IMG/VR virus record: IMGVR_UViG_2788500396_000001
Span: 859-64,858 of that record
From: a virus
Taxonomy: Duplodnaviria; Heunggongvirae; Uroviricota; Caudoviricetes
DNA: 64,000 bases
Strand: one strand, 5' to 3'
How positions within the stretch are numbered: the stretch's first letter is position 1; the number at the start of each line of letters is the position of its first letter. Under the pieces are notes generated by a model. The model was not told where the DNA came from. It saw only the letters and a program-made list of their open reading frames with translations, and did no database searches. Made by a program: the position numbers and the translations under genes. Positions 16,534 to 55,952 of this stretch are shown piece after piece.

Positions 16534-17718
16534 CGAATATAAAGACTTAAAGGCTTTGTATATCCGTTTCCATGCGATTTTTTGAGACCGATTTTTGAAA
16601 GAGATTCTTGCGTCGCGAATAATATCCTCATCGGTAATTTCTCCGGACGCCTTTTCGATATTGTAGAGTCTCCACATCGATCCGGACATATACAATCCCT
16701 TACTTGTCAAATCATAACACGTATCCGGGAAAACTTTTAGTTTGCCATTCAACGAACTAAGGTTTTGTCTGATCGTCGTTTCTTTGATCGTAGTTCCGTT
16801 GATTTCTTTCCAGCTCATATGTCTTTTTAAGAACTTATCAGATTGCTCAATTTCGAACATTGAATCCCCGGAAGAAAAGAGGTACCTTTGATATGCAACG
16901 AAAAATTTAATGAGACAATCTGGTATATCAACAACTCCAAAATAAGGAGTATTGATTTTATGATCTTCGATTGATACATCTGAGTCAAGCAAAAAAGGCA
17001 ACTCTTCCGTAGAAACTCCAAGCCATACCAGAACAGCACATATAATAGTCCGTGCATCAACAAGCCCATCAGCACGTGTTAAAATTTCGCAAAGTTCTTT
17101 AGGACCAGCAACAAGTTTCGATGCAATTGCTTTGCGAATATCCATATCGCTTGGTTTTAAAGAAAGCAGCTCAACTTTATACGGAACATACAGACCACTT
17201 TCAACACACCATTCAATATAGTGCTTAATAATAGGCAATACATTTTGCATTGTGCGGTAGTTAATTGTATTCCCACTGGATATCGCATCTACAAGCTCTT
17301 CTTTTGTCGCTTCGCAAATATCTTTTTTGTATTTGAGCTCGTAAACAGTCAGCAAATGGTTGAATGTTTTGTTGCATCTGCTTGCCATATATTTATGGCC
17401 GCTCTCTTCCAAAAACTTCTTTTTCCGCTCTACAAACGGAGTTGGATCAATGTCATCTGCATCTTTGAAGCAGGAGCATGCCTCTTGTGCCTGGATGCCC
17501 ATAGCAGGTGCCATAAATTCTGCGAGAGCAATCAACACTTTATTGGAAAATTTCCAGAGTGATTCTCCCTGCAGAATAGATGTTGCTTGCGCATTTGATA
17601 GCCCGATTTCATTCTTTACGTAGTCATACAGCTCGTTTCTAAAGTCAGCGCCACTCACAGCGATCATTTTTTCCATCTCGCTGATCATAGTGACTTGGCT
17701 ATACACAGCCACCAAGAG
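16528..17718 (-). CDS. hypothetical protein (about 396 aa)
   Basis: Long minus-strand ORF. The likely start is TTG/GTG with AAGGAGGTG 5-6 nt upstream (17718), but the ATG at 17688 is also possible. No confident domain assignment. Confidence 0.5.
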   Translation of the reverse strand, partial: LLVAVYSQVTMISEMEKMIAVSGADFRNELYDYVKNEIGLSNAQATSILQGESLWKFSNKVLIALAEFMAPAMGIQAQEACSCFKDADDIDPTPFVERKKKFLEESGHKYMASRCNKTFNHLLTVYELKYKKDICEATKEELVDAISSGNTINYRTMQNVLPIIKHYIEWCVESGLYVPYKVELLSLKPSDMDIRKAIASKLVAGPKELCEILTRADGLVDARTIICAVLVWLGVSTEELPFLLDSDVSIEDHKINTPYFGVVDIPDCLIKFFVAYQRYLFSSGDSMFEIEQSDKFLKRHMSWKEINGTTIKETTIRQNLSSLNGKLKVFPDTCYDLTSKGLYMSGSMWRLYNIEKASGEITDEDIIRDARISFKNRSQKIAWKRIYKAFKSLYSE

Positions 17719-17785
17719 ACACCTCCTTTTTTGATATACACATTGTAACACAAGTATTTCTGTGTGTCAACATGAATATCGTTTT

Positions 17786-18366: not shown

Positions 18367-19722
18367 TTACATCAAAAACTGCGAGACTGTCAGGTAGGGT
18401 AGTGCAAATTCAAGAAGTGTCTCTTTCTCGTTTTTGAGTTTCCCATCGATAACATTCTCTAACAGCATAGACAACATCTTCCCGAGATTTGGACCTGGTT
18501 TAAATCCAATCTGAATTAAATCATTTCCGTTGACTGCTAAATCGCGAAGCGAAAAGCATTCGTTTGAATCATAAACATACTGTAACATCTCAGAGAACAA
18601 ACGAACTTTAGCAAGTCTTTCAGATTGATTCACAGTAGATTGTGCATATATATCTGAGGCCCGCACAAATATGAGCATGTGCAACATATCTCGCCCGTGC
18701 TTATTAAGGCAACGCTTGATGTATGTTCGCTCACAATTGAAAGTGATATCATGATATTTTACAAGATGAGCAACATCTTCAATGATTCGATTCTCAAAAC
18801 GGAGACGTGACATTACATCCCTGCAGATCGGTTCGCTTAATGCTGGATGTCCGTAAAAATGCCCGACTCCATTTTCATCCTCGGAGTATGAGTACGGTTT
18901 ACCAGCGTCATGGAACAGCAATGCCAATCGAACTGTTTCATTTCTAGGCGCATAGTCTATCGCGTGCAGAGTGTGTTCGAACACATCATAAATATGGTAT
19001 GGAGAATTTTGATGGAACCCATCCATATCACGAAGCTCTGGAGCAACTAAAAACAAAATGTTTTTGCACTGTCTTAAAATTTCAGCCGCATTGATCCCGA
19101 CCACCATTTTACGAAGTTCAGCTTGTATTCTTTCCGCAGAAATGCCATTCGGAATATAATTAACAGACTGTATATAAGACAAGGTCTCTGCATCCATGTC
19201 AAATCCAAGGACCGACGCAAATCTCATAGCTCTCATAATTCTGAGCCAGTCTTCTCCGAAGCGATCAGCAGGGCGTCCTACACAACGCACGATTCTTTTG
19301 TTTGCATCAGAGACACCTCCAAAAAAATCGATAATGTTTCCATCATGACCAAGCGCCATGGCGTTGATCGTAAAGTCTCTCCTGGCTAAATCTTCCCGCA
19401 AATCTGACACAAACTCTACTTTTTTAGGATGCCGCCCATCTTCATATTCTCCATCAATTCTATATGTCGTGACTTCATACACTCCGTCATAAACAACAGA
19501 CACGGTGCCATGCTTCAAACCAGTCTCTATGACATGTTTGTCTTTAAAAATATCCACGACCTGCTCTGGCTTTGCATTGGTACATATATCCCAATCATGG
19601 GGCTTTCGCCCCATGACAAGGTCTCTTACACACCCACCAACCAGATACGCCTCATATCCATACTGGTTAAGCCTGGCTAAAATCCGACTCGCTCCATCAG
19701 GAATGCTCCAGTTGTGTTGCAT
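18367..19722 (-). CDS. cca: CCA-adding tRNA nucleotidyltransferase with HD domain
   Basis: Pol-beta head motif YLVGGCVRDLVMGRKPHDWDI. HD motif LLFHDAGKP. RBS AGAGGTGG 6 nt upstream of the ATG. Confidence 0.8.
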   Translation of the reverse strand: MQHNWSIPDGASRILARLNQYGYEAYLVGGCVRDLVMGRKPHDWDICTNAKPEQVVDIFKDKHVIETGLKHGTVSVVYDGVYEVTTYRIDGEYEDGRHPKKVEFVSDLREDLARRDFTINAMALGHDGNIIDFFGGVSDANKRIVRCVGRPADRFGEDWLRIMRAMRFASVLGFDMDAETLSYIQSVNYIPNGISAERIQAELRKMVVGINAAEILRQCKNILFLVAPELRDMDGFHQNSPYHIYDVFEHTLHAIDYAPRNETVRLALLFHDAGKPYSYSEDENGVGHFYGHPALSEPICRDVMSRLRFENRIIEDVAHLVKYHDITFNCERTYIKRCLNKHGRDMLHMLIFVRASDIYAQSTVNQSERLAKVRLFSEMLQYVYDSNECFSLRDLAVNGNDLIQIGFKPGPNLGKMLSMLLENVIDGKLKNEKETLLEFALPYLTVSQFLM

Positions 19723-20722
19723 TCATGACCACCTCTTTATTGACCGCAAAAACAAATTCCTCAACCGCTTTCATGTCTGGGCTCTTAGGTAAATCGCTTG
19801 TTTCTACAGCGTAATTGAATCTCTTTTCAAGATCTGAAACAATTTCAAAAAATTCCGGGCGGTAGGAATGATCTGCTTTTTGGAACTCTCCAGCGCGAAT
19901 TTTCCTGAGCAAAGGTAAATCATCTTTTCTGTTAGTGATGATATCTCCTTTTTCAAAGATATCAATAGCCTCTAAATAGAGGCGAACCAGATGCATTGCA
20001 TGTTTGTTAAGATGATCATCATCCTTTTTGCTGTTTCTGTGGTTGAGTTTATCATAGTTTTTTGCTACCTCTGTCAGTTCGTTCATGATCCCGATGAATT
20101 CGCGCAATGGCATTTTTGACATTGATACATCAGCCATAATTTTAACATCGCACGGATCGTCGTTTAAATATAAACGAATCTGTTCTGGAGAGAAGGTTTT
20201 GTATCTGCATGGGAAAGTTTGCATTGCATTGTTGCAAGATCCCATAATATGGCGCTCTTTATCTTCGGCTGGATAATGGTCTCTAGCTAATGCGTTTTCC
20301 AAGCGACGCAATTGCTGAGTGGCATAACCGCCAAATGAATGAATCGCTCTTTTAGACAAAAACAGCTTTCTGTTTGCAATAATCTGTTCGCCAATTGGAG
20401 TCATTTTAAGATAGTGTTCAGGTAAACAGCCCAACATTTCAATAATGTTTGGATTGCAGTTACACGCCAGATGCACAAATTTATTGAATGCGTAAATTAC
20501 TGTATCGGTTCCGCCATGCTGGAATTGCTCAAACGATGAAAGCCCAATCAGGTCTGAAGCGGACTGCATCGCACACCCTCGAACATCAATATCTGATGTT
20601 GGAGTATTTGTTCCATATGCATGGCTACCACCCATCACCAAGAACAACACATTGTCTCCAAGCCTTGGCTCTGTGGAGAGAAAGCTATATTCGGGGGACT
20701 GCAATATCTTACGGTAATCCAT
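19697..20722 (-). CDS. Pol-beta-superfamily nucleotidyltransferase (minimal NTase, PF10127-like)
   Basis: GGSHAYGTNTPTSDIDVRG (GS-x9-13-DxD). Start moved to the ATG at 20722, preceded by AAGGAGGG. Overlaps cca by 26 nt. Confidence 0.6.
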   Translation of the reverse strand: MDYRKILQSPEYSFLSTEPRLGDNVLFLVMGGSHAYGTNTPTSDIDVRGCAMQSASDLIGLSSFEQFQHGGTDTVIYAFNKFVHLACNCNPNIIEMLGCLPEHYLKMTPIGEQIIANRKLFLSKRAIHSFGGYATQQLRRLENALARDHYPAEDKERHIMGSCNNAMQTFPCRYKTFSPEQIRLYLNDDPCDVKIMADVSMSKMPLREFIGIMNELTEVAKNYDKLNHRNSKKDDDHLNKHAMHLVRLYLEAIDIFEKGDIITNRKDDLPLLRKIRAGEFQKADHSYRPEFFEIVSDLEKRFNYAVETSDLPKSPDMKAVEEFVFAVNKEVVMNATQLEHS

Positions 20723-20821
20723 ATAACCCTCCTTGTGTCCAATAAACAGTACCAAATGGTGATAAGAAAACAAGGAAATCGAACATTTGTATTATAACGT
20801 GCGATTTCCTAAAATGCAACC

Positions 20822-32519: not shown

Positions 32520-33371
32520 TTACAATAGGCTTTCGATATAGCTACGATCCTGCGTAAAAATAGGGATGTCAATATCAATAAGCCACCGGCTTCGGATCAC
32601 CTCAGTCTCCTCACCAGTTTTTCTGTTTTTTACAATCGCAGACTCTCTTACTTTTCTACAGGCAGAACCGCGTTTATAAGCAATAGGGAAGTCATTCCAA
32701 TTGATTCCCTTTTCAATAAACAACATATCCTGAATCTGGTTGCAGGATTTCCCATGGAGTTGCTTCGCGCTGAAATATGCTTGGCCAACAGACTCAATGC
32801 TATTTCTTGTGGCGTCTTGTTGTCTCCAAATCAAACAATTGCAAACCTCTTCTTTTGGGATTGAAAATACACGCGAATCAAACATTGCAGAAGAAAATTT
32901 ACTGCAGTATATGTCCGCCATCTTGATAAGCGCGGGATCTACAGGCTGATTAGTGCCACCTTCATCCCAACCAGGAAGATGATCCCGACCCCACTCATCA
33001 ACATTTTCAGAAAAGAATTTATTGAATGCCAGCGTTGCCATGCTTGCGCTTACGCTACACATTTTCTGGACGTTGTAACCAAACCATGCATCTGTAGTGA
33101 TGGTTGCATAATCAGTGAGAATGAGAGTGATTTCATCAGATTGCGTATATCCGAACACACAACCCTGCACATTCTCACACAGATACTTCATTGTCTGCCT
33201 CATGCTTTTAAGGAGAACTTCATCAAAAGGTCTTTCCATTCCTCTTGTAAAAGTGTGGAATGCTTTTCCATCAACACGGACAATGACGGGAACTCGTCGT
33301 GTTAAATAGTTTCTTTGGATATTTTCGTATCCTTTCATCCGATCTCCGAGAGAGTCTTTCTTGTTGCTCAC
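32520..33371 (-). CDS. Thg1-like protein (tRNA-His guanylyltransferase family 3'-5' polymerase)
   Basis: LGDRMKGYE, VIVRVDGKAFHTFTRG, GYTQSDEITLIL and RQQDATRN align with Thg1 signature regions. GTG start with AAGGAGA 6 nt upstream. Confidence 0.75.
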   Translation of the reverse strand: MSNKKDSLGDRMKGYENIQRNYLTRRVPVIVRVDGKAFHTFTRGMERPFDEVLLKSMRQTMKYLCENVQGCVFGYTQSDEITLILTDYATITTDAWFGYNVQKMCSVSASMATLAFNKFFSENVDEWGRDHLPGWDEGGTNQPVDPALIKMADIYCSKFSSAMFDSRVFSIPKEEVCNCLIWRQQDATRNSIESVGQAYFSAKQLHGKSCNQIQDMLFIEKGINWNDFPIAYKRGSACRKVRESAIVKNRKTGEETEVIRSRWLIDIDIPIFTQDRSYIESLL

Positions 33372-39556: not shown

Positions 39557-39928
39557 TTAATCAAGCTCAGCAAGCAGAGCGGTCAGTTCATCAATAGACT
39601 TGTTCTGGAGCGCCTGGTCCTGCTTTTCAGCGATGATTTCACGAATCTTACGCTTCTGCTCAGCCTTAGCCTTTGCGTTCTTTCGATCAGCCGCTTCCTT
39701 CTGCTTCACCTGTACGATATGCCGGATAATCGCAATCTTCGTAGAAGTCTCAACATCCTCATTAGTCGGAGTGTCGAGAAGGCTCTCTTCATTAGACTGC
39801 TTCTCCTGAGCATTCAGCCCCTTGAAAATAGAATCAAGGGCAGTCACACTCAGATCCCACAGATCCTCGACTCCAATCATTCCCTTTTGACACTCCCCAT
39901 GGCTAAAGCCAGGGGATTCTTGGCTCAT
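39557..39928 (-). CDS. hypothetical protein (start codon abuts IS end)
   Basis: 123 aa. No SD in the IS-derived sequence immediately upstream. Confidence 0.4.
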   Translation of the reverse strand: MSQESPGFSHGECQKGMIGVEDLWDLSVTALDSIFKGLNAQEKQSNEESLLDTPTNEDVETSTKIAIIRHIVQVKQKEAADRKNAKAKAEQKRKIREIIAEKQDQALQNKSIDELTALLAELD

Positions 39929-41224
39929 CGAGGACAGCCTAAGTACCCTGCAGTTGCCCGCAGAACACCGAGGTCTTACACCCTCTCCTCAAGCGTTGGG
40001 TAGGTTCCGGTGTGTCCCACCGTACCTTGAATACTTGATTCTTTAGGCGCTGGCCTGTAGCAGCCGCAAACCCTCCATCAGCAGATTCTGGGCGGCGTTT
40101 TGATCCCGGTCGTGGTGGGTTCCGCACTGCGGGCAGGTCCACTCGCGCACCGCAAGATCTTTGACCTCTGGGTTTTGGTACCCACATCGGCTGCATAGCT
40201 GGCTGCTGGAGAAGAAGGTTCCCACTTCTACCAGCATTTTGTGCTGCCAGGCGGCCTTGTACTTGAGCTGACGGGCCAACTCACCCCAAGAGGCATCGGC
40301 GATGGCCTTGGCCAGCTTGTGGTTCTTGAGCATGTCTCCTACATTGAGGCTCTCCACACAGATGATGTCGTAGTCCCTTACCAACTGGGTAGTGAGCTTG
40401 TGCAGGTAGTCCTGCCGGCAGTTGGCGATGCGCTCATGCTGCTTGGCCAGGCGGAGGCGGGCCTTCTCCCGGTTGCGGCTGCCCTTTGGCTTTCGAGACA
40501 GCCGCCGCTGGAGGGTGGCGAGCTTCTTCTCCGCCTTCTGCAGATACTTTGGGTTGTCGAACTTCTGCCCATCTGAGGTGATCACCAAATCCTTGATACC
40601 GACATCCAGCCCTACGGCGGCGCCAGTGCTGGGATACTGGGATATCTCCACCCCGGTGCAGCAGAGGCTCACGAAAAACTTGCCACTGTGGCTCATGCTC
40701 ACGGTGGCGTTGAGAATCCGTCCCTGTACCGGGGTGGAGACCTTGGCCTTTACCCACCCCAGCTTGGGCAGTTTCACCGCCCGGTCGCTGGCCTGAATGT
40801 TTTGTCCAACAACCTTGCTGGTGTAGCTGGCCTTGCTGTGGTGTTTAGCCTTGAATTTGGGGAAGCCCACCTTTCGCCTGCCCTTGCGGCCGGCGAAGAA
40901 GTTCTTGTATGCCTGGTCCATGTGGAGTACGGAGGTCTGCAGGGCTGTGGAGTCAACCTCCCGCAGCCAAGGGTAGGTATCCTTCAGTCCGGGCAGCAGC
41001 TTCACGCAGTCGTGGCCGCTGATGGGGCTGCCGGCAGAATAGGCCGTCTTCCGGGCCGCCAAGGTCTGGTTATAGACGAAGCGGCTGCAGCCGGTGGTCT
41101 TACGGATGAGCTCTTCCTGCTTTGCTGTGGGGTACAACCGGAACTTGTAGGCTTTCTCCATGAGCGGAACCGCCTTTCTTGCGTGGATTTGGATGTTATG
41201 ATATGTTGCATGTAAAAACGCCCC
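39929..41224 (-). mobile_element. IS200/IS605-family element carrying tnpB only (IS1341-like), about 60% GC, with the predicted omegaRNA region at the RE (about 39929-40100)
   Basis: Abrupt GC shift. tnpB is flanked by about 60-nt LE and about 114-nt RE non-coding ends. Inserted directly after the integrase stop codon and before the 39928 gene start. Boundaries approximate. Confidence 0.6.
40043..41161 (-). CDS. tnpB: TnpB (OrfB) RNA-guided RuvC-like nuclease of IS605 family
   Basis: N-terminal [34 protein letters not shown]. RuvC-I D (GLDVGIKDL). RuvC-II E (VCVESLNVG). Zinc finger CSRCG...CPQCG. Ruv[15 protein letters not shown]. Confidence 0.9.
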
Positions 41225-42046
41225 TTATCGCGTATCGTTTTTTATATCGGTGAGCGCTTCTATACCTAAATTCATCCAAAGGTATACGGTTTTATCAAAC
41301 TTGTCTTGGAGATCGATATACCTAGCAGTAATCGATGGATTAGAATGCCCCAGCATACCTCTAACCCTTTCAATTGAGGCTGCTTCCATTTTTAACGAAT
41401 CGGGGAGAGGACGGCCAGTTAAGTATCCGGCCGCAGCGCGAGCTCCAGTTTTTCTCATTGAGTGCGTAGAAAACCTTCTGTTTTCTCTCCACAATCCAAC
41501 CCTCTTTGTTGCAGACCGAATAGCCCCACTTACAAGCTGTTCCGTGATTGGTTGCGAGCGAAGCACTATATTGCCATCAGAGATTGCTGTTTGAAATCGC
41601 TTTCTTGGCCCTTGACTTGTGAACATATAGTCCATATAGCACACATCTCCAATACTATCTCTATACAAAGAGATCGCAAGTTTAATGGCATCGTTCACAT
41701 AGATGTGTCTCAGATTTCTGTTTTTCTTTTCAATCTTACTAATTTCATCTTTGATATTCCCGTTCTGATCGAGCACATCCTTCCATCGGAACTCCAACAG
41801 ATCTCCAATTCGTAATTGTGTGTTACAACCCATCACGAACAAACACATGTCGCGCATTGATTTATTGGCGAGCTCAGTTACAACCATATTCACTTCGTCT
41901 TCACTGTCAAACGGAAGTACCTTTTTTGACCTCTTTTCAATCAATTCAGCAACTTGGAAGGTATCTTCTGTGTCTAGTGTATCACATTTTATATAGGTTG
42001 TAAAGCCTTTTTTGGTGTAATCTTCAAAATCTATGACCGCGTTCAT
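41225..42046 (-). CDS. int: tyrosine recombinase / phage-type integrase
   Basis: C-terminal catalytic residues R (RIGDLLEF), HSMRKTGA, LGHSNPSITARY (R-H-R-Y). RBS AAGGGGTGG. Starts 12 nt after the mazF stop. Confidence 0.75.
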   Translation of the reverse strand: MNAVIDFEDYTKKGFTTYIKCDTLDTEDTFQVAELIEKRSKKVLPFDSEDEVNMVVTELANKSMRDMCLFVMGCNTQLRIGDLLEFRWKDVLDQNGNIKDEISKIEKKNRNLRHIYVNDAIKLAISLYRDSIGDVCYMDYMFTSQGPRKRFQTAISDGNIVLRSQPITEQLVSGAIRSATKRVGLWRENRRFSTHSMRKTGARAAAGYLTGRPLPDSLKMEAASIERVRGMLGHSNPSITARYIDLQDKFDKTVYLWMNLGIEALTDIKNDTR

Positions 42047-42058
42047 ATCACCACCCCT

Positions 42059-42391
42059 TTATAGTGCAAAGCTGACGTGCAAAGCACGGTTAACATCATC
42101 CATCTCTTTCTCGCTGAGGGAACACAGCTTTTGAATGAGACGAGTTTTGTCTAAAGTACGAACCTGCTCAAGTAGAATGGTTGAATTTCTAGGAAGCCCA
42201 TCACGATGCTTGATGTTGATGTGGGTTGGTAGAGGTTTCTTCGTGTTTTTAGACGTAATCGCTGCGGCAATCACAGTTGGACTATATGTATTGCCGATAT
42301 CATTCTGAACAACAAGAACAGGGCGAATACCGCCCTGTTCACAACCAACTACAGGATTAAGATCTGCGAGGTAGATTTCACCTCTGGTCAT
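42059..42391 (-). CDS. mazF: MazF/PemK/EndoA-family mRNA interferase toxin
   Basis: RGEIYLADLNPVVGCEQGGIRPVLVVQNDIGN...KPLPTHINI...ILLEQVRTLDK is near-collinear with B. subtilis EndoA. Start taken at ATG 42391. Confidence 0.8.
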   Translation of the reverse strand: MTRGEIYLADLNPVVGCEQGGIRPVLVVQNDIGNTYSPTVIAAAITSKNTKKPLPTHINIKHRDGLPRNSTILLEQVRTLDKTRLIQKLCSLSEKEMDDVNRALHVSFAL

Positions 42392-42398
42392 GTTATAA

Positions 42399-42635
42399 TC
42401 ATCTTCTCCTTCCACTAACAGAGTGCATTGCCATTCTCTGTAATTTTTTGTATTCTTCGTCGCTTAGCACCGGTCCTTTCTTTTTCTGTTCCTCAATTTC
42501 CGCTAACCGCTTATTTGCAAGTGCCGACACTTCTTTCCATTCCTTACGTTGTCTTGATCTTTCGTTGATCGTGATAGATGCATCAGCCGCGCTTTTCAAA
42601 ATAAAAGCTACAATAATTAAATAAAGTATCCACAT
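42399..42635 (-). CDS. small membrane-anchored charged protein (candidate non-canonical antitoxin)
   Basis: The N-terminus WILYLIIVAFILKSAADA is hydrophobic and the C-terminal half is Lys/Glu-rich. The stop overlaps the mazF start region. RBS GGAGGA. Confidence 0.45.
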   Translation of the reverse strand: MWILYLIIVAFILKSAADASITINERSRQRKEWKEVSALANKRLAEIEEQKKKGPVLSDEEYKKLQRMAMHSVSGRRR

Positions 42636-42651
42636 ATAAATCCTCCAAATT

Positions 42652-42690
42652 TTAATGGTTATGATACTAATTAAATTATATCAAAAATTG
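42652..42690 (-). promoter_or_regulatory. sigma70-like promoter (TTAGAC-18-TGaTATAAT) driving 42399..42635-mazF-int
   Basis: Read on the minus strand: ttagacaaatccttcaatttttgaTATAAT, followed by GGAGGAtttatATG. Confidence 0.5.
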
Positions 42691-42734
42691 AAGGATTTGT
42701 CTAATATTTTAACAAAAAATCAACACCTTTCTTG

Positions 42735-53244: not shown

Positions 53245-54021
53245 TTACGCTACCAGAAGCTGAGAGAGTGCGCTCGTAGCTCCGCGACCGGGGAAAGTCG
53301 TGTATGCTTCCGCCATCACATCGTCAAACGAACGGTTTCTCACGATCTCCTTTGCGACGCGAACCATCTTTTCAGCATCTCCAACATAGGAGAGGAGACG
53401 GCACAGAGACCGCAGAGAGACGCTGCTATAACCACCCTTGGTATAATGCCACCCGATCTCATCGATCGTCTTCAGGATGGAGATAACGGCATCTCGACCA
53501 TAGGTGGCATAGATTCGAGTAAGTGCGTTGATAGCAGAGCAACAACCAGGACCGTGTCTGCGACTGCTGGTGAGCGTCACATCGAGATCCTTGCAGATCT
53601 CAAAGATATCCTTTGCGTATCCGTATCCGGCCTCTGCCTTAGCGCGAAGACGCTGCAGAACCGTCAGGACACGGACATTTTCCATCTGGTCTGCGAAGTA
53701 GTCGGCTTCTTCCTCATAGGTCATCTCGAAAATGACGCAGGTGAGGTCTCTCTTTCCAATCAGCTTGGCCGCTGCCATACGATGCTGGCCATCAACTACA
53801 TAAAAAGCGCCGTCCCGGAAAGAAACGATCAGAGGATCGCACTTGCGGTTGTCCCAGTTCTGTGCGATGGTCTTGACGGTGGAACCTTCCTGCCGCTGAT
53901 AATCAGCAAGTTGCAGGAGCTCAATGGGAATCTGGGCGATGAGCTTACCGTCGTAGTTCTTGGCGTTGCTCATAACGGCGGCACAAGCGGTAGTGTTGAT
54001 AGAGCTGATGATGGCGTTCAT
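53245..54021 (-). CDS. ParB-like nuclease domain protein (DGQHR family)
   Basis: FYVVDGQHRMAAAKL. GC-rich gene. Confidence 0.6.
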   Translation of the reverse strand: MNAIISSINTTACAAVMSNAKNYDGKLIAQIPIELLQLADYQRQEGSTVKTIAQNWDNRKCDPLIVSFRDGAFYVVDGQHRMAAAKLIGKRDLTCVIFEMTYEEEADYFADQMENVRVLTVLQRLRAKAEAGYGYAKDIFEICKDLDVTLTSSRRHGPGCCSAINALTRIYATYGRDAVISILKTIDEIGWHYTKGGYSSVSLRSLCRLLSYVGDAEKMVRVAKEIVRNRSFDDVMAEAYTTFPGRGATSALSQLLVA

Positions 54022-54083
54022 GTGTAAATCCTCCTTAAATATGTAAAGCGCCCTAATGGGCGCTTCTTAACTGTAGTATTATG

Positions 54084-54725
54084 TTATTTGGATGCGATCT
54101 TATATCCAGGCAGAAGCATCCCGTTGACCTTGAAGCAATCGGCATACTCCTTCGGAATTTCTGGATAAATCTCAGCAAAAAGATGCTGATAAGCCCTGAT
54201 TCTTCCTGCAAGATATTTATCCAGTCCTTCCATTGTCGTAAATACTTTCCGGTCCTGCCCAGCAATCTTCATTTGCATGGAAGACCTCGGAGCATTGGTA
54301 TAAATACTCCAGCGCAAAGTCCACGAATATGGAACAACTCTCTGAAGCTGACTGTTGTATCTGGTGTTTTCAGAAATGGAGTAGGACATCTGATACACAG
54401 CATTGCTGATTATGTACCGATATCCATCATCTACCCACTGGTTCGACGTGTGCTTAGATGCCGGAGTTTTCAGATACTCAATTGCTTTGTCATATAAGAG
54501 TGTCACTCCAGCTTGCTGTTCCCATTTTTCCGCCAGACTTTTCAGTTGGATGAACACTTCCCGCTCCGCCTCCACACTTTTTTCTCTGGAGGCGACCAGA
54601 TCTTGGAGCGGGGCAGAAAGAAGATCTTCAACATTGCTTTCTTGTTCGTTTTCATAGATGATATGCTCCACACGAATCGAACTCGCAGGTTTCAATTCAT
54701 CTCGATCATATGCATGGTATGTCAT
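54084..54725 (-). CDS. hypothetical protein
   Basis: 213-aa ORF. Confidence 0.45.
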   Translation of the reverse strand: MTYHAYDRDELKPASSIRVEHIIYENEQESNVEDLLSAPLQDLVASREKSVEAEREVFIQLKSLAEKWEQQAGVTLLYDKAIEYLKTPASKHTSNQWVDDGYRYIISNAVYQMSYSISENTRYNSQLQRVVPYSWTLRWSIYTNAPRSSMQMKIAGQDRKVFTTMEGLDKYLAGRIRAYQHLFAEIYPEIPKEYADCFKVNGMLLPGYKIASK

Positions 54726-54734
54726 AAACCCTCC

Positions 54735-54998
54735 TTATCTAATGTATTGACTGGGATCGGCTCCGGGAACATCCCAGCCGCACATACTACCTACCTCCAT
54801 GGCTTGCCGCTGCCACATATTCACACCCAACTGTTCGTTCAGCTGGTCGGCCAGTTCCACATTCTTCTCTTTGTCACCAGTGTCCCATTCGGAAGGGTAG
54901 TAACCAACCTCTCCACGTTTGATGCAGATGAGGTCTCCGGTAGTCAGAAGGGTGGAGAAGCACATCTCAGGAAGCCCAGGTGCGCATTTTTCTTTCAT
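54735..54998 (-). CDS. hypothetical small protein
   Basis: 87-aa ORF. Confidence 0.4.
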   Translation of the reverse strand: MKEKCAPGLPEMCFSTLLTTGDLICIKRGEVGYYPSEWDTGDKEKNVELADQLNEQLGVNMWQRQAMEVGSMCGWDVPGADPSQYIR

Positions 54999-55028
54999 AA
55001 CACCATCCTCACTTATAGGAAACTTATT

Positions 55029-55952
55029 TTACACGCCAACCAGAGAGCTCAGCTTGTCAAGCATCTTATGGCCGTCCATGATCCGACCCCAGTTGTTTTC
55101 CCGATAGTTGGCCGTGTTGCGGAGCGGCTCAGAATGGGAAACCATATCGCTCATGGCGTTCACCACGCCCCAAGCAGTGTTCAGGAACTGAGCGATATCA
55201 GGCCGCCAGTAGCACACCATAAACTCATCCTTGGCTTTCTTTGCCATGGTCTTCTTTCTCTCGGAGTCATTCTCCTCGACCGGGAACATCTCGTTAAGGA
55301 TCTTATCCAGTTCCTCGTCGTTGATGGTCTTATTGGCCAGCTTGTCGGCATAGTCCCCAAGACCATCCATGTAAGCGTCAGCAAGCTGTAGACACATACG
55401 AGCCTCCTGCATCTTCTGCTCGATGTTGCCCGTATGGCGAGCAGACCACTGACGCTTCGCGGTATTCAGGGCCAGATTCAGGGTGTTGTTACATACAACC
55501 CGAATCGGAGTCATGCAAACCCGAATAGCTCCGGTTCCATCGTGCGTGTTGGAGAAACAGAGGTACGGCTCTACCGCATCGCCAGCAATCTTCCGCTCAG
55601 GCATCTTTGCCAGCAACCAAATCTTCTTGCCGCCTCTCAGGCTTCCCGCAGTCTCATACCGAACATCTCCGCCGATCAGCTCGTCGGTAAAGCTGAAAGC
55701 ATCTGCGTTCTGGACGATCTTGTAGGAATCGCTGACTACGCCGAGCACAGAACCGTCCGTGCTCCGGACATTCGCCTTGTAGTTCTCGATCTTGGAACCT
55801 CCGCACACCTGGATGTTCTTCTGCTGTACTTCCCAGTCAAGGCCAGCAAGACGAAGAGCATCCGCACTGGTAGGAGCCTCAGACACCTCAGTTCCCAGTC
55901 CGTGCCAGGGCTTCTCACGCACATACATCATAGTTTCCACATTAGCTGCCAT
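55029..55952 (-). CDS. DUF932-family protein (phage/plasmid-associated)
   Basis: SYKIVQNADAF and CFSNTHDGTGAIRV signature motifs. Confidence 0.6.
   Translation of the reverse strand: MAANVETMMYVREKPWHGLGTEVSEAPTSADALRLAGLDWEVQQKNIQVCGGSKIENYKANVRSTDGSVLGVVSDSYKIVQNADAFSFTDELIGGDVRYETAGSLRGGKKIWLLAKMPERKIAGDAVEPYLCFSNTHDGTGAIRVCMTPIRVVCNNTLNLALNTAKRQWSARHTGNIEQKMQEARMCLQLADAYMDGLGDYADKLANKTINDEELDKILNEMFPVEENDSERKKTMAKKAKDEFMVCYWRPDIAQFLNTAWGVVNAMSDMVSHSEPLRNTANYRENNWGRIMDGHKMLDKLSSLVGV

What the first reader, a model, noticed from the sequence alone, without database searches (positions are those of the whole stretch)
41225..42690. Promoter-driven operon: membrane-anchored small protein, EndoA/MazF-type toxin, tyrosine integrase
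A near-consensus extended -10 promoter and a strong RBS lead into a 78-aa protein with an N-terminal TM helix and a charged tail. Next comes a MazF/EndoA toxin almost collinear with B. subtilis EndoA. A tyrosine recombinase starts 12 nt downstream. No RHH/AbrB-type antitoxin is recognisable. The small membrane protein could be a novel antitoxin or regulator. Coupling a toxin to an integrase suggests an addiction or abortive-infection module. It could also be lysogeny control riding on the phage.
Basis: partly seen in the sequence, partly recalled or inferred. Interest (0 to 1): 0.6.

Follow-up and report, generated by a model that had tools for sequence, protein, structure and literature searches.

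The report
Phage MazF toxin with membrane partner
A large Flavonifractor phage carries a tightly packed three-gene cassette: a tiny membrane-anchored protein, an intact MazF RNA-cutting toxin and a stripped-down tyrosine recombinase. It has no conventional antitoxin, so the tiny protein is the best, but still unproven, candidate for an unusual MazF inhibitor.

Summary
A TAGACA-17-TGaTATAAT promoter is one of only two sites of that quality in the 64 kb (0.09 expected per strand). With a GGAGG ribosome-binding site it leads into three genes. These are a 78-aa protein with an N-terminal transmembrane helix, a 110-aa EndoA-type MazF with Arg and Thr at the two EndoA catalytic positions, and, 12 nt later, a 273-aa tyrosine recombinase. 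The recombinase keeps all six catalytic residues but has no core-binding or arm-binding domain. The window is a large phage, identical to Flavonifractor sp. An82 DNA. The trio recurs in the same slot in at least four diverged relatives. The small protein is under purifying selection (dN/dS 0.16) and is an orphan family: five clusters among 1.84 billion representative proteins. No MazE, AimX or YosL-type antitoxin is present in the window. The best reading is a non-canonical MazF module whose inhibitor is the membrane-tethered small protein, co-transcribed with an independently acting recombinase. Neutralisation is inferred from gene order only. A sister clade keeps the recombinase without MazF. 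Other phage MazFs also lack annotated antitoxins. This is a new variant of a known kind, of moderate interest.

The parts
42675..42703 (-). Sigma-70/SigA-type promoter: TAGACA, 17-nt spacer, TG-extended TATAAT.
   Evidence: 11/12 plus TG; one of only two such sites in the window, with 0.09 expected per strand. Conserved as TAGACA-17-TGaTACAAT in L001-L003. Absent in L007, where the small ORF starts 10 nt after the upstream gene.
42642..42646 (-). Shine-Dalgarno sequence GGAGG, 6 nt upstream of the small ORF's ATG.
   Evidence: Read directly from the sequence. Conserved in the relatives.
42399..42635 (-). 78-aa small protein: an N-terminal hydrophobic (transmembrane) helix followed by a charged helical tail. 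By the positive-inside rule the tail should face the cytoplasm. It is the candidate non-canonical partner or inhibitor of MazF.
   Evidence: orphan family, five clusters among 1.84 billion representatives. (dN/dS 0.16; hydropathy above 1.6 in all members). (helix 2-52, break at G53-P54, helix 59-74). No Pfam, PHROG, PADLOC or PDB match.
42059..42391 (-). EndoA-type MazF/PemK endoribonuclease, 110 aa. An alternative GTG start lies at 42415.
   Evidence: PF02452, 3e-35. (phrog_1936). (EndoA 4ME7/4MDX, 1.7e-36). The positions matching EndoA Arg25 and Thr48 are conserved (GGIRPV, AAAIT). All relatives aa from the ATG.
42316..42340 (-). Perfect 11-bp GC-rich hairpin with a 3-nt loop inside mazF codons 18-26 (EQGGIRPVL), followed by UUGUUGUU. 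Its role is unexplained.
   Evidence: Present in the window, L001 and L002. Longer in L008 (15 bp, perfect). Absent in L007 and L011, which use different synonymous codons.
41225..42046 (-). Minimal tyrosine recombinase, 273 aa. It has a catalytic domain with an invariant R79-K108-H195-R198-H234-Y243, only about 45 N-terminal residues, and a conserved C-terminal YLWMNLGxEA helix.
39887..41186 (-). Neighbouring element, not part of the cassette: an IS200/IS605-family TnpB element with 59% GC. The tnpB gene runs 41161..40043 and is followed by a GC-rich 3' region. The element begins 38 nt after the recombinase stop codon and interrupts an 81-aa ORF that is intact in L002 and L007.
   Evidence: The left junction is defined by comparison with L002. 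The right junction is inferred from where collinearity with L001 ends.

Best explanation
This is an accessory cassette of a large phage of Flavonifractor. The genome is probably about 130 kb and probably temperate.

**Transcription (shown as sequence features).** A strong host-type promoter transcribes three tightly packed genes.

**MazF (fold, collinearity and catalytic residues shown; activity inferred).** Gene 2 is an active EndoA-type MazF. It would cut single-stranded RNA, leaving 2',3'-cyclic phosphate and 5'-OH ends, and so arrest translation.

**Small protein (inferred).** Gene 1 is a bitopic membrane protein whose charged tail faces the cytoplasm. It is made first. In this phage its stop codon lies 7 nt before the mazF ATG, so the two are probably translationally coupled. 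I propose that it is the cognate inhibitor of MazF. It would hold the toxin inactive at the membrane until the small protein is lost or degraded. In effect this is a type II-like toxin-antitoxin pair in which a transmembrane helix replaces the usual DNA-binding domain of MazE.

**Recombinase (catalytic residues shown; role inferred).** Gene 3 is a catalytically intact, catalytic-domain-only tyrosine recombinase. It is co-transcribed but probably acts independently on phage DNA, for example in dimer or concatemer resolution or in a local rearrangement. It is probably not the canonical integrase.

**Biological role (inferred).** The likely role is control of phage or host translation in the carried state. 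That could mean prophage retention, exclusion of other phages, or damping of lytic growth. The last would parallel the way host MazF promotes lysogeny of phage phi3T.
For: **Cassette anatomy.**
- The promoter is one of two sites in the window scoring at least 11/12 with TG. The other drives a MrpR/YopR-like candidate repressor gene.
- The genes are tightly spaced: 7 nt, then 12 nt.

**MazF.**
- It is collinear with EndoA, with Arg and Thr at the positions matching EndoA Arg25 and Thr48.

**Small protein.**
- A small protein with the same build (a hydrophobic N-terminal helix of 12-20 residues, basic residues just after it, and a conserved Trp/WK motif) precedes MazF in every MazF-bearing lineage. 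These are the window/L001-L006 lineage, L007, L011 and L008. MazF is 70-78% identical to the window's in L007, L011 and L008, and the recombinase 51-71%.
- P0028 and P0031 have longest contigs of the same length as recombinase homologues P0015 and P0011, so they probably lie on the same contigs.
- P0033 bridges the sequence subtypes.
- dN/dS is 0.16 at dS 0.59.
- The family occurs nowhere else: five clusters among 1.84 billion representatives.

**No conventional antitoxin.**
- tblastn and a six-frame motif scan find no MazE, AimX or YosL-type sequence in the window or in the relatives.

**Recombinase.**
- All six catalytic residues are invariant in 18 homologues.
- The AlphaFold2 model shows a catalytic domain only. 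Its best structural matches are XerA, the integron integrase and the lambda Int catalytic core.

**Precedent.**
- Small phage peptides that bind EndoA-type MazF decide between lysis and lysogeny in phi3T (PMC10769878).
Against: **Against the small protein as antitoxin.**
- Nothing shows a physical or functional interaction between the small protein and MazF. Conserved gene order within one phage clade is the only link.
- Its tail is strongly basic in this phage (net +7). Known MazE C-termini are acidic RNA mimics. The tails differ greatly between subtypes.
- It lacks the GY.EMA..N motif shared by MazE, AimX and YosL.
- MazF genes of unrelated phages (PMBT24, Perkons, NatCom) also lack annotated antitoxins. 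Phage MazF may therefore often be solitary.

**Against a MazF-recombinase functional unit.**
- In the sister clade (L009, L010) the recombinase occurs without MazF. A downstream protein there has a weakly similar transmembrane helix plus CKKEG segment (hhalign probability 50%). This hints that the membrane module may travel with the recombinase rather than with MazF.
- In L007 the cassette has no promoter of its own.

**Against self-protection by site avoidance or sparing of particular genes.**
- UACAU, the B. subtilis MazF site, is not avoided in the phage's sense strand. Its distribution gives no significant evidence that lysogeny genes are spared.
Confidence: 0.42

Rival explanations
1. MazF is a solitary phage weapon. 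It would be made during infection or in lysogeny to cut host or competitor RNA, for host takeover or for exclusion of other phages, with no dedicated antitoxin. The small membrane protein would then be an unrelated membrane 'moron', such as a superinfection-exclusion protein, that merely shares the transcript.
For: - PHROG 1936 files phage MazFs under 'host takeover'.
- MazF genes in PMBT24, Perkons and NatCom phages have varied neighbours and no annotated MazE.
- The small protein has no similarity to any antitoxin.
- The phage carries a large RNA-repair set that could mend MazF-type RNA ends: a Pnkp-RNA ligase fusion, a CCA-adding enzyme, a Thg1-like protein and 12 tRNAs.
Against: - A strong constitutive-looking promoter driving an uninhibited, intact MazF should poison a carrier cell.
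- UACAU is not avoided in phage transcripts, so the phage would also cut its own mRNAs.
- The small ORF sits immediately upstream of MazF in all four MazF-bearing lineages, although its sequence has diverged greatly.
Confidence: 0.25
2. The cassette is a self-contained lysis-lysogeny control module that works like the arbitrium/sro circuit of SPbeta and phi3T. Phage-borne MazF would degrade lytic transcripts to favour lysogeny. The small protein would play the AimX role as a MazF inhibitor that licenses lytic growth. The integrase-fold protein would act in repression or DNA binding.
For: - In phi3T, host EndoA-type MazF promotes lysogeny. AimX (51 aa) and YosL inactivate it. The same operon encodes two integrase-fold proteins, YopP and YopR/SroF (PMC10769878; PMC8612738; 10.1101/2025.11.27.690993).
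- The window also encodes a MrpR_N_CB/YopR-like protein behind the only other top-scoring promoter.
- YopR/MrpR structures appear among the fold matches of the recombinase.
Against: - The small protein lacks the MazE/AimX/YosL motif and, unlike soluble AimX, is membrane-anchored.
- Unlike SroF, the recombinase keeps its catalytic Tyr and all other active-site residues, and it lacks the core-binding domain that SroF uses to grip DNA.
- No AimR or AimP-like genes were seen next to it.
- The UACAU distribution is uninformative.
- Temperate status is inferred, not shown.
Confidence: 0.18
3. The 273-aa protein is the phage's true integrase, or an excision or cassette recombinase. MazF plus the small protein would be an addiction module stabilising the integrated element.
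For: - The catalytic residues are intact.
- The region just downstream varies between relatives (IS element, deletions, DUF8224 present or absent).
- The 100%-identical proteins (P0001, P0006) are annotated in Flavonifractor sp. An82, and their clusters list a longest contig of 656 kb. This is consistent with an integrated state.
Against: - There is no arm-binding or core-binding domain.
- The gene sits mid-array among co-directional phage genes, not at a prophage end.
- No att-like direct repeat or dif/lox-like inverted repeat was found within several kb in any lineage.
- The downstream variation is explained by the IS insertion and by ordinary mosaic recombination.
- Distant relatives of the recombinase in 100-150 kb gut phages have no MazF nearby.
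Confidence: 0.1

Closest known systems
B. subtilis EndoA/EndoAI (MazF/MazE, ydcDE) type II toxin-antitoxin system; PDB 4ME7, 4MDX
   Same: The toxin is collinear with EndoA (E 1.7e-36) and has Arg and Thr at the positions of the two catalytic residues. The gene order is small upstream ORF, then toxin, with near-overlap.
   Different: The upstream protein has no RHH DNA-binding domain and no MazE C-terminal motif. Instead it has a transmembrane helix and, in this phage, a basic tail. The operon also continues into a recombinase.
AimX and YosL of SPbeta-like phages (phi3T): small phage proteins that bind and inactivate EndoA-type MazF to steer lysis versus lysogeny (PMC10769878)
   Same: A large Firmicute phage, an EndoA-type MazF at the centre, a small phage protein as the proposed MazF modulator, and integrase-fold proteins in the same regulatory neighbourhood.
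   Different: Here MazF is encoded by the phage, not the host. The small protein is membrane-anchored and lacks the GY.EMA..N motif. No arbitrium genes lie next to it. The integrase-fold protein is catalytically intact.
Plasmid and phage stability loci that pair a site-specific recombinase with a toxin-antitoxin system (RK2 parCBA/parDE; P1 cre-lox plus phd-doc). This comparison rests on my own knowledge.
   Same: A recombinase and a toxin module are carried together on a mobile replicon.
   Different: No resolution site was identified. The recombinase lacks a core-binding domain. An episomal lifestyle has not been shown.
Short 'integrase-domain' proteins found mid-genome in Streptococcus, Bacillus (phi105) and Clostridioides phages (PHROG 216)
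   Same: They match the recombinase at 27-31% identity over the catalytic domain, are short, and do not sit at the integration module.
   Different: None is reported next to MazF. Their function is unknown.

Membership tests
MazF/PemK endoribonuclease (PF02452), EndoA subgroup | Full-length match to the PemK_toxin domain above Pfam's gathering score | tested here: met
   121 bits against a cut-off of 23.1, profile positions 2-109 of 109.
MazF/PemK endoribonuclease (PF02452), EndoA subgroup | Residues matching EndoA Arg25 and Thr48 (T48A abolishes RNase activity, PMC10769878) | tested here: met
   The alignment to 4ME7/4MDX places GGIRPV and AAAIT at those positions. They are conserved in L001, L007, L008 and L011.
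MazF/PemK endoribonuclease (PF02452), EndoA subgroup | Sequence-specific RNA cleavage activity | not testable with these tools
   Needs an enzyme assay or mapping of 5'-OH RNA ends.
Canonical mazEF type II toxin-antitoxin system | An adjacent antitoxin with an RHH or AbrB DNA-binding domain and a MazE-type toxin-binding C-terminus | tested here: not met
   No Pfam antitoxin domain in the small ORF. tblastn of MazE, AimX and YosL against the window gives nothing below E 0.07, and nothing at the locus. No GY.EMA..N-type motif in any of the six frames.
Canonical mazEF type II toxin-antitoxin system | A small upstream gene co-transcribed and closely coupled with the toxin gene | tested here: met
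   The stop codon at 42399-42401 lies 7 nt before the mazF ATG at 42391. The same order, with gaps of 4-14 nt, is seen in L007, L008 and L011.
Canonical mazEF type II toxin-antitoxin system | The upstream protein neutralises the toxin | not testable with these tools
Tyrosine recombinase (PF00589) | Catalytic R-K-H-R-H/W-Y set | tested here: met
   R79, K108, H195, R198, H234 and Y243 are invariant in 18 homologues.
Tyrosine recombinase (PF00589) | Catalytic-domain fold | tested here: met
   AlphaFold2 pLDDT 77. Foldseek matches XerA, IntI and the lambda Int catalytic core with probability 1.0 and TM-score about 0.44.
Phage integrase (lambda Int, XerC/D-like integration module) | N-terminal core-binding domain, with or without an arm-binding domain | tested here: not met
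   Only about 45 residues precede the catalytic domain. Residues 1-26 are disordered and there is a single helix at 29-39.
Phage integrase (lambda Int, XerC/D-like integration module) | An adjacent att site or core-type inverted repeat | tested here: inconclusive
   No convincing site within several kb in the window or in L002 and L007-L011. The only strong palindrome is the hairpin inside mazF.
SroF/MrpR/YopR integrase-fold repressors | Loss of the catalytic tyrosine, with retention of a core-binding domain for monomeric DNA clamping (10.1101/2025.11.27.690993) | tested here: not met
   The tyrosine and all other active-site residues are retained, and the core-binding domain is absent. The profile comparison with the window's own MrpR-like protein is insignificant.

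The most novel reading that the evidence does not exclude
The small protein is a membrane-tethered MazF antitoxin or sensor, a class not described before. A full-text search for membrane-anchored, membrane-bound or transmembrane antitoxins found no paper. By holding a phage-borne EndoA-type MazF at the membrane, it would let the phage release a translation brake in response to a membrane-level cue. Such cues could be envelope stress, DNA entry by a superinfecting phage, or turnover by an FtsH-type protease. The outcome would be either the lysis-lysogeny choice or exclusion of competitors. The co-transcribed minimal recombinase would be part of the same decision module.
Probability: 0.22. Interest if true: 0.75.

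Novelty: new variant of a known kind. Interest (0 to 1): 0.5.

Why it matters
Recent work showed that host EndoA-type MazF decides lysogeny in SPbeta-like phages and that small phage peptides control it. Here a gut-phage clade carries its own MazF. Its conserved partner resembles no known antitoxin and appears to be membrane-anchored.

If the partner does neutralise MazF, three things follow:
- it would add a new antitoxin architecture, with a transmembrane helix in place of a DNA-binding domain;
- it would link toxin control to the cell membrane;
- it would give a simple three-gene system for asking how phages use RNases on their own behalf.

If it does not, the locus is another example of the widespread and unexplained 'orphan' MazF genes of phages.

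Tried and rejected
1. **Self-immunity by site avoidance.** UACAU occurs 71 times on the sense strand against 63 expected (z +1.3), so it is not depleted. Its distribution does not significantly spare the operon or the MrpR-like gene.
2. **A conventional or AimX/YosL-type antitoxin elsewhere in the window.** tblastn and six-frame motif scans were negative.
3. **A known defence system.** PADLOC gave no hits for any of the three proteins or their neighbours.
4. **Recombination sites or an invertible segment near the recombinase.** Repeat and palindrome scans of the window and six related loci found nothing shared except the hairpin inside mazF. No inversion was seen among the relatives.
5. **The hairpin as an intragenic terminator.** It is followed by a U-rich tract only in the window's lineage. 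It is absent in L007 and L011, so it is not a conserved regulatory device.
6. **A general MazF-recombinase linkage.** Eighty distant relatives of the recombinase in IMG/VR and 32 in bacterial genomes have no MazF within 6-10 kb.
7. **Close DNA relatives among deposited phages.** None was found.
9. **A special kinship of the recombinase with YopP or with the window's MrpR-like protein.** Only generic active-site similarity was found.
10. **An Rfam scan.** It found only tRNAs.
Full report
**1. What is there**

The finding is real, and it lies on the minus strand. Reading 5' to 3' on that strand, the features are as follows.

- **Promoter.** TAGACA, a 17-nt spacer, then TG-a-TATAAT, at 42703..42675.
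- **Ribosome-binding site.** GGAGG, 6 nt before an ATG.
- **Small ORF.** 78 aa, 42635..42399.
- **MazF gene.** Its ATG at 42391 lies 7 nt after the small ORF's stop codon. An in-frame GTG at 42415 is the mechanical ORF start, but gene calls in all but one relative (L003) use the ATG and give 110 aa.
- **Recombinase.** Exactly 12 nt after the MazF stop codon comes a 273-aa tyrosine recombinase, 42046..41225.

The promoter is not a chance match. Across both strands of the 64-kb window, only two sites reach at least 11/12 consensus positions with the TG extension. Simulated sequence gives 0.09 such sites per strand. The second site, at 17770, lies just upstream of a gene with a MrpR/YopR core-binding domain.

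**2. The three proteins**

*MazF.* It matches Pfam PemK_toxin over the whole profile at 3e-35. It aligns end to end with B. subtilis EndoA (PDB 4ME7 and 4MDX, E 1.7e-36). The alignment has Arg and Thr at the positions matching EndoA Arg25 and Thr48; T48A abolishes RNase activity (PMC10769878). It is therefore most probably an active endoribonuclease.

*Recombinase.* It matches PF00589 and integrase PHROGs. R79, K108, H195, R198, H234 and Y243 are invariant in 18 homologues that share 42-71% identity with it.

- The AlphaFold2 model has mean pLDDT 77. It shows a catalytic domain preceded by only about 45 residues. Residues 1-26 are disordered and there is a single helix at 29-39. So there is no core-binding and no arm-binding domain.
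- Its best solved-structure matches are archaeal XerA, the integron integrase and the lambda Int catalytic core. The integrase-fold repressors YopR and MrpR appear lower in the list.
- Because the whole active site is retained, it is probably an enzyme rather than a SroF-like repressor.

*Small protein.* It has a hydrophobic N-terminal segment; the Kyte-Doolittle 19-residue maximum is 1.99.

- AlphaFold2 predicts one helix over residues 2-52, a break at Gly53-Pro54, and a second helix at 59-74, with moderate confidence.
- No positive charge precedes the hydrophobic stretch, and basic residues follow it. By the positive-inside rule the tail should be cytoplasmic. This is an inference.
- It has no significant match in Pfam, PHROGs, PADLOC or the PDB.

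**3. Genomic setting**

Almost every gene in the window is on the minus strand.

- The window encodes 12 tRNAs, a kinase-phosphatase-RNA ligase fusion, a CCA-adding enzyme, other nucleotidyltransferases and a ribonucleotide reductase with an inserted segment.
- Gene calls in relatives add a Thg1-like protein and a radical-SAM protein.
- The window is therefore part of a large phage genome. No deposited phage is close at the DNA level.
- The small protein and the recombinase are 100% identical to proteins annotated in Flavonifractor sp. An82 (B5G34_00395 and B5G34_00385). Their clusters list a longest contig of 656 kb.
- The window has about 42% GC. A 59%-GC IS200/IS605-family TnpB element sits 38 nt downstream of the recombinase. 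Its left junction is fixed by comparison with a relative that lacks it. It interrupts an 81-aa ORF that is intact in L002 and L007.
- Three things make a temperate or long-term carried state likely, although this is not proven: a high-GC insertion sequence in a low-GC phage, the YopR-like gene, and the presence of the DNA in an isolate's assembly.

**4. Conservation**

The same trio occupies the same slot, after conserved 323-aa, 100-aa and about 96-aa ORFs, in several sets of metagenomic contigs.

| Lineage | Relation to the window |
|---|---|
| L001-L006 | same phage lineage: L001-L005 about 94-95% nt identity, L006 100% |
| L007 | recombinase 71%, MazF 78% identical |
| L011 | recombinase 65%, MazF 74% identical |
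| L008 | recombinase 51%, MazF 70% identical |

- In each lineage, MazF is preceded by a small ORF with the same build: a 12-20-residue hydrophobic N-terminus, basic residues, and a conserved Trp (WK motif). The C-terminal tails differ.
- A profile search of 5.8 billion proteins, and an exhaustive HMM search of 1.84 billion representatives, recovered only this tiny family. It has five clusters at 50% identity. One of them, P0033, bridges the subtypes.
- Between the window and L001, the small ORF has dN/dS 0.16 at dS 0.59. It is therefore a real gene under purifying selection.
- dS falls from 1.09 in codons 1-41 to 0.22 in codons 42-78, and to about 0.03 in mazF, the recombinase and tnpB. A recent recombination breakpoint therefore lies inside the small ORF.

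**5. Limits of the linkage**

- A sister clade (L009, L010; recombinase about 50% identical) has the recombinase but neither MazF nor the small ORF. An unrelated 73-aa ORF lies upstream instead.
- In that clade, the protein downstream of the recombinase has a transmembrane segment followed by CKKEG. This is weakly similar to the type-B small proteins (hhalign probability 50%, single-comparison BLASTP E 0.004). If the similarity is real, the membrane module may belong with the recombinase rather than with MazF. I regard this as unresolved.
- More distant relatives of the recombinase (24-32% identity in the best aligned segment) occur in many 100-150 kb gut phages and in bacterial genomes. None has MazF within 6-10 kb.
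- In L007 the small ORF starts 10 nt after the upstream gene, so the dedicated promoter is specific to some lineages.

**6. Is there another antitoxin?**

- tblastn of B. subtilis MazE, phi3T AimX and SPbeta YosL against the window found nothing at or near the locus.
- The motif these three share (GY.EMA.IN...E.EAE) is absent from all six reading frames of the window and of L001 and L007-L011.
- MazF genes in unrelated phages (Enterocloster phage PMBT24, Psychrobacillus phage Perkons, a NatCom Clostridium phage) also lack an annotated MazE and have varied neighbours.
- An 'orphan' MazF is therefore common in phages. What is specific to this clade is the constant small membrane protein upstream.

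**7. Tests of mechanism that were possible**

- If the phage used MazF against the host and protected itself by avoiding the cleavage site, UACAU should be depleted on its sense strand. It is not: 71 observed against 63 expected.
- If MazF spared lysogeny genes, as reported for phi3T (10.1101/2025.11.27.690993), those genes should lack the site. The recombinase, the small ORF and the YopR-like gene have none, and mazF has one. With one site per 900 nt this is not significant.
- No att-like, dif-like or lox-like site, and no rearrangement, was found around the recombinase.
- The only strong palindrome is an 11-bp GC-rich hairpin inside mazF codons 18-26. L008 has a perfect 15-bp version. L007 and L011 lack it because they use other synonymous codons. 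It remains unexplained.

**8. Interpretation**

The most economical reading is a non-canonical MazF module. The upstream small protein, made first and closely coupled to MazF, would be the toxin's inhibitor, with a membrane anchor in place of MazE's DNA-binding domain. The recombinase would be a co-transcribed but separately acting enzyme.

*Shown:* the promoter and ribosome-binding site, the three ORFs and their spacing, the MazF family assignment and catalytic residues, the recombinase active site and missing N-terminal domains, the conservation, and the selection.

*Inferred:* the membrane topology, neutralisation of MazF, the biological role, and the recombinase's substrate.

Literature precedent makes a role in the carried state or in the lysis-lysogeny balance plausible. 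In phi3T, host EndoA-type MazF promotes lysogeny, and the small proteins AimX and YosL bind and inactivate it. That operon also holds two integrase-fold proteins (PMC10769878, PMC8612738). The small protein here is not a member of that family.

The main rival is that MazF is solitary and the small protein is an unrelated membrane moron.

**9. Verdict**

The locus is a new variant of a known kind: an EndoA-type MazF with an orphan, membrane-anchored upstream partner and a minimal tyrosine recombinase, conserved in one clade of large gut phages. Interest is moderate (0.5). It would be considerably higher if the membrane-tethered antitoxin reading were confirmed.

Noticed in passing
window 39887-41186 (-): An IS200/IS605-family TnpB element (tnpB 41161..40043, 372 aa, with a GC-rich 3' region that could be an omega-RNA). 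It has 59% GC in a 42%-GC phage. It sits inside an 81-aa ORF 38 nt after the recombinase. It is present in L001 and absent in L002 and L007. A Logan contig from run SRR5344363, 100% identical to the window, breaks inside it, which suggests several copies in the host genome.
   Followed up: partly
window 16528-17770 (-): A protein of about 395-407 aa with a MrpR/YopR N-terminal core-binding domain, the SPbeta master-repressor type. It lies behind the only other near-consensus extended -10 promoter in the window (TTGACA-17-TGtTACAAT). An ACACA..TGTGT palindrome sits in the spacer. The true start codon is probably the TTG near 17714. It is a candidate master repressor of this phage.
   Followed up: partly
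window 8263-10494, 13118-16469, 18367-20773, 32520-33371 (-): A dense RNA-repair and tRNA toolkit. It comprises a 743-aa kinase-phosphatase-RNA ligase fusion, 12 tRNA genes, a CCA-adding enzyme, a second nucleotidyltransferase and a Thg1-like protein (Pfam hit on the L001 orthologue). These enzymes act on the 2',3'-cyclic phosphate and 5'-OH ends that MazF-type RNases produce. A functional link to the phage's own MazF is conceivable but untested.
   Followed up: no
window 42316-42340 (-), L008 5703-5733: A perfect GC-rich hairpin inside mazF codons 18-26: 11 bp here and 15 bp in L008. It requires six specific synonymous choices. L007 and L011 lack it. It is neither a conserved terminator nor an obvious recombinase site.
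   Followed up: partly
window 42399-42635 compared with L001 5633-5869: Synonymous divergence changes sharply inside the small ORF: dS 1.09 in codons 1-41 and 0.22 in codons 42-78. It is about 0.03 in mazF, the recombinase and tnpB, but 0.36-0.46 in the upstream genes. A recent recombination breakpoint therefore lies within the gene, and the mazF-recombinase-IS block was exchanged recently between related phages.
   Followed up: partly
L009 3610-3942 and 5148-5480; L010 3450-3842: In the sister clade without MazF, a 110-aa protein with a Pfam Tad4 hit lies two genes upstream of the recombinase. The protein downstream of the recombinase has a transmembrane helix followed by CKKEG, weakly similar to the small proteins that precede MazF.
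   Followed up: partly
window 938-4348 (-): The ribonucleotide reductase large subunit is 1136 aa. Its family match is split, and a helicase-like or intein-like segment is inserted. This recalls the intein-bearing bnrdE gene of SPbeta.
   Followed up: no
window 53245-55952 (-): A cluster of DUF6551, LPD34 (a polyvalent-protein domain) and DUF932 genes in a stretch of higher GC (46-52%). Such genes are typical of the anti-restriction or establishment regions of mobile elements.
   Followed up: no
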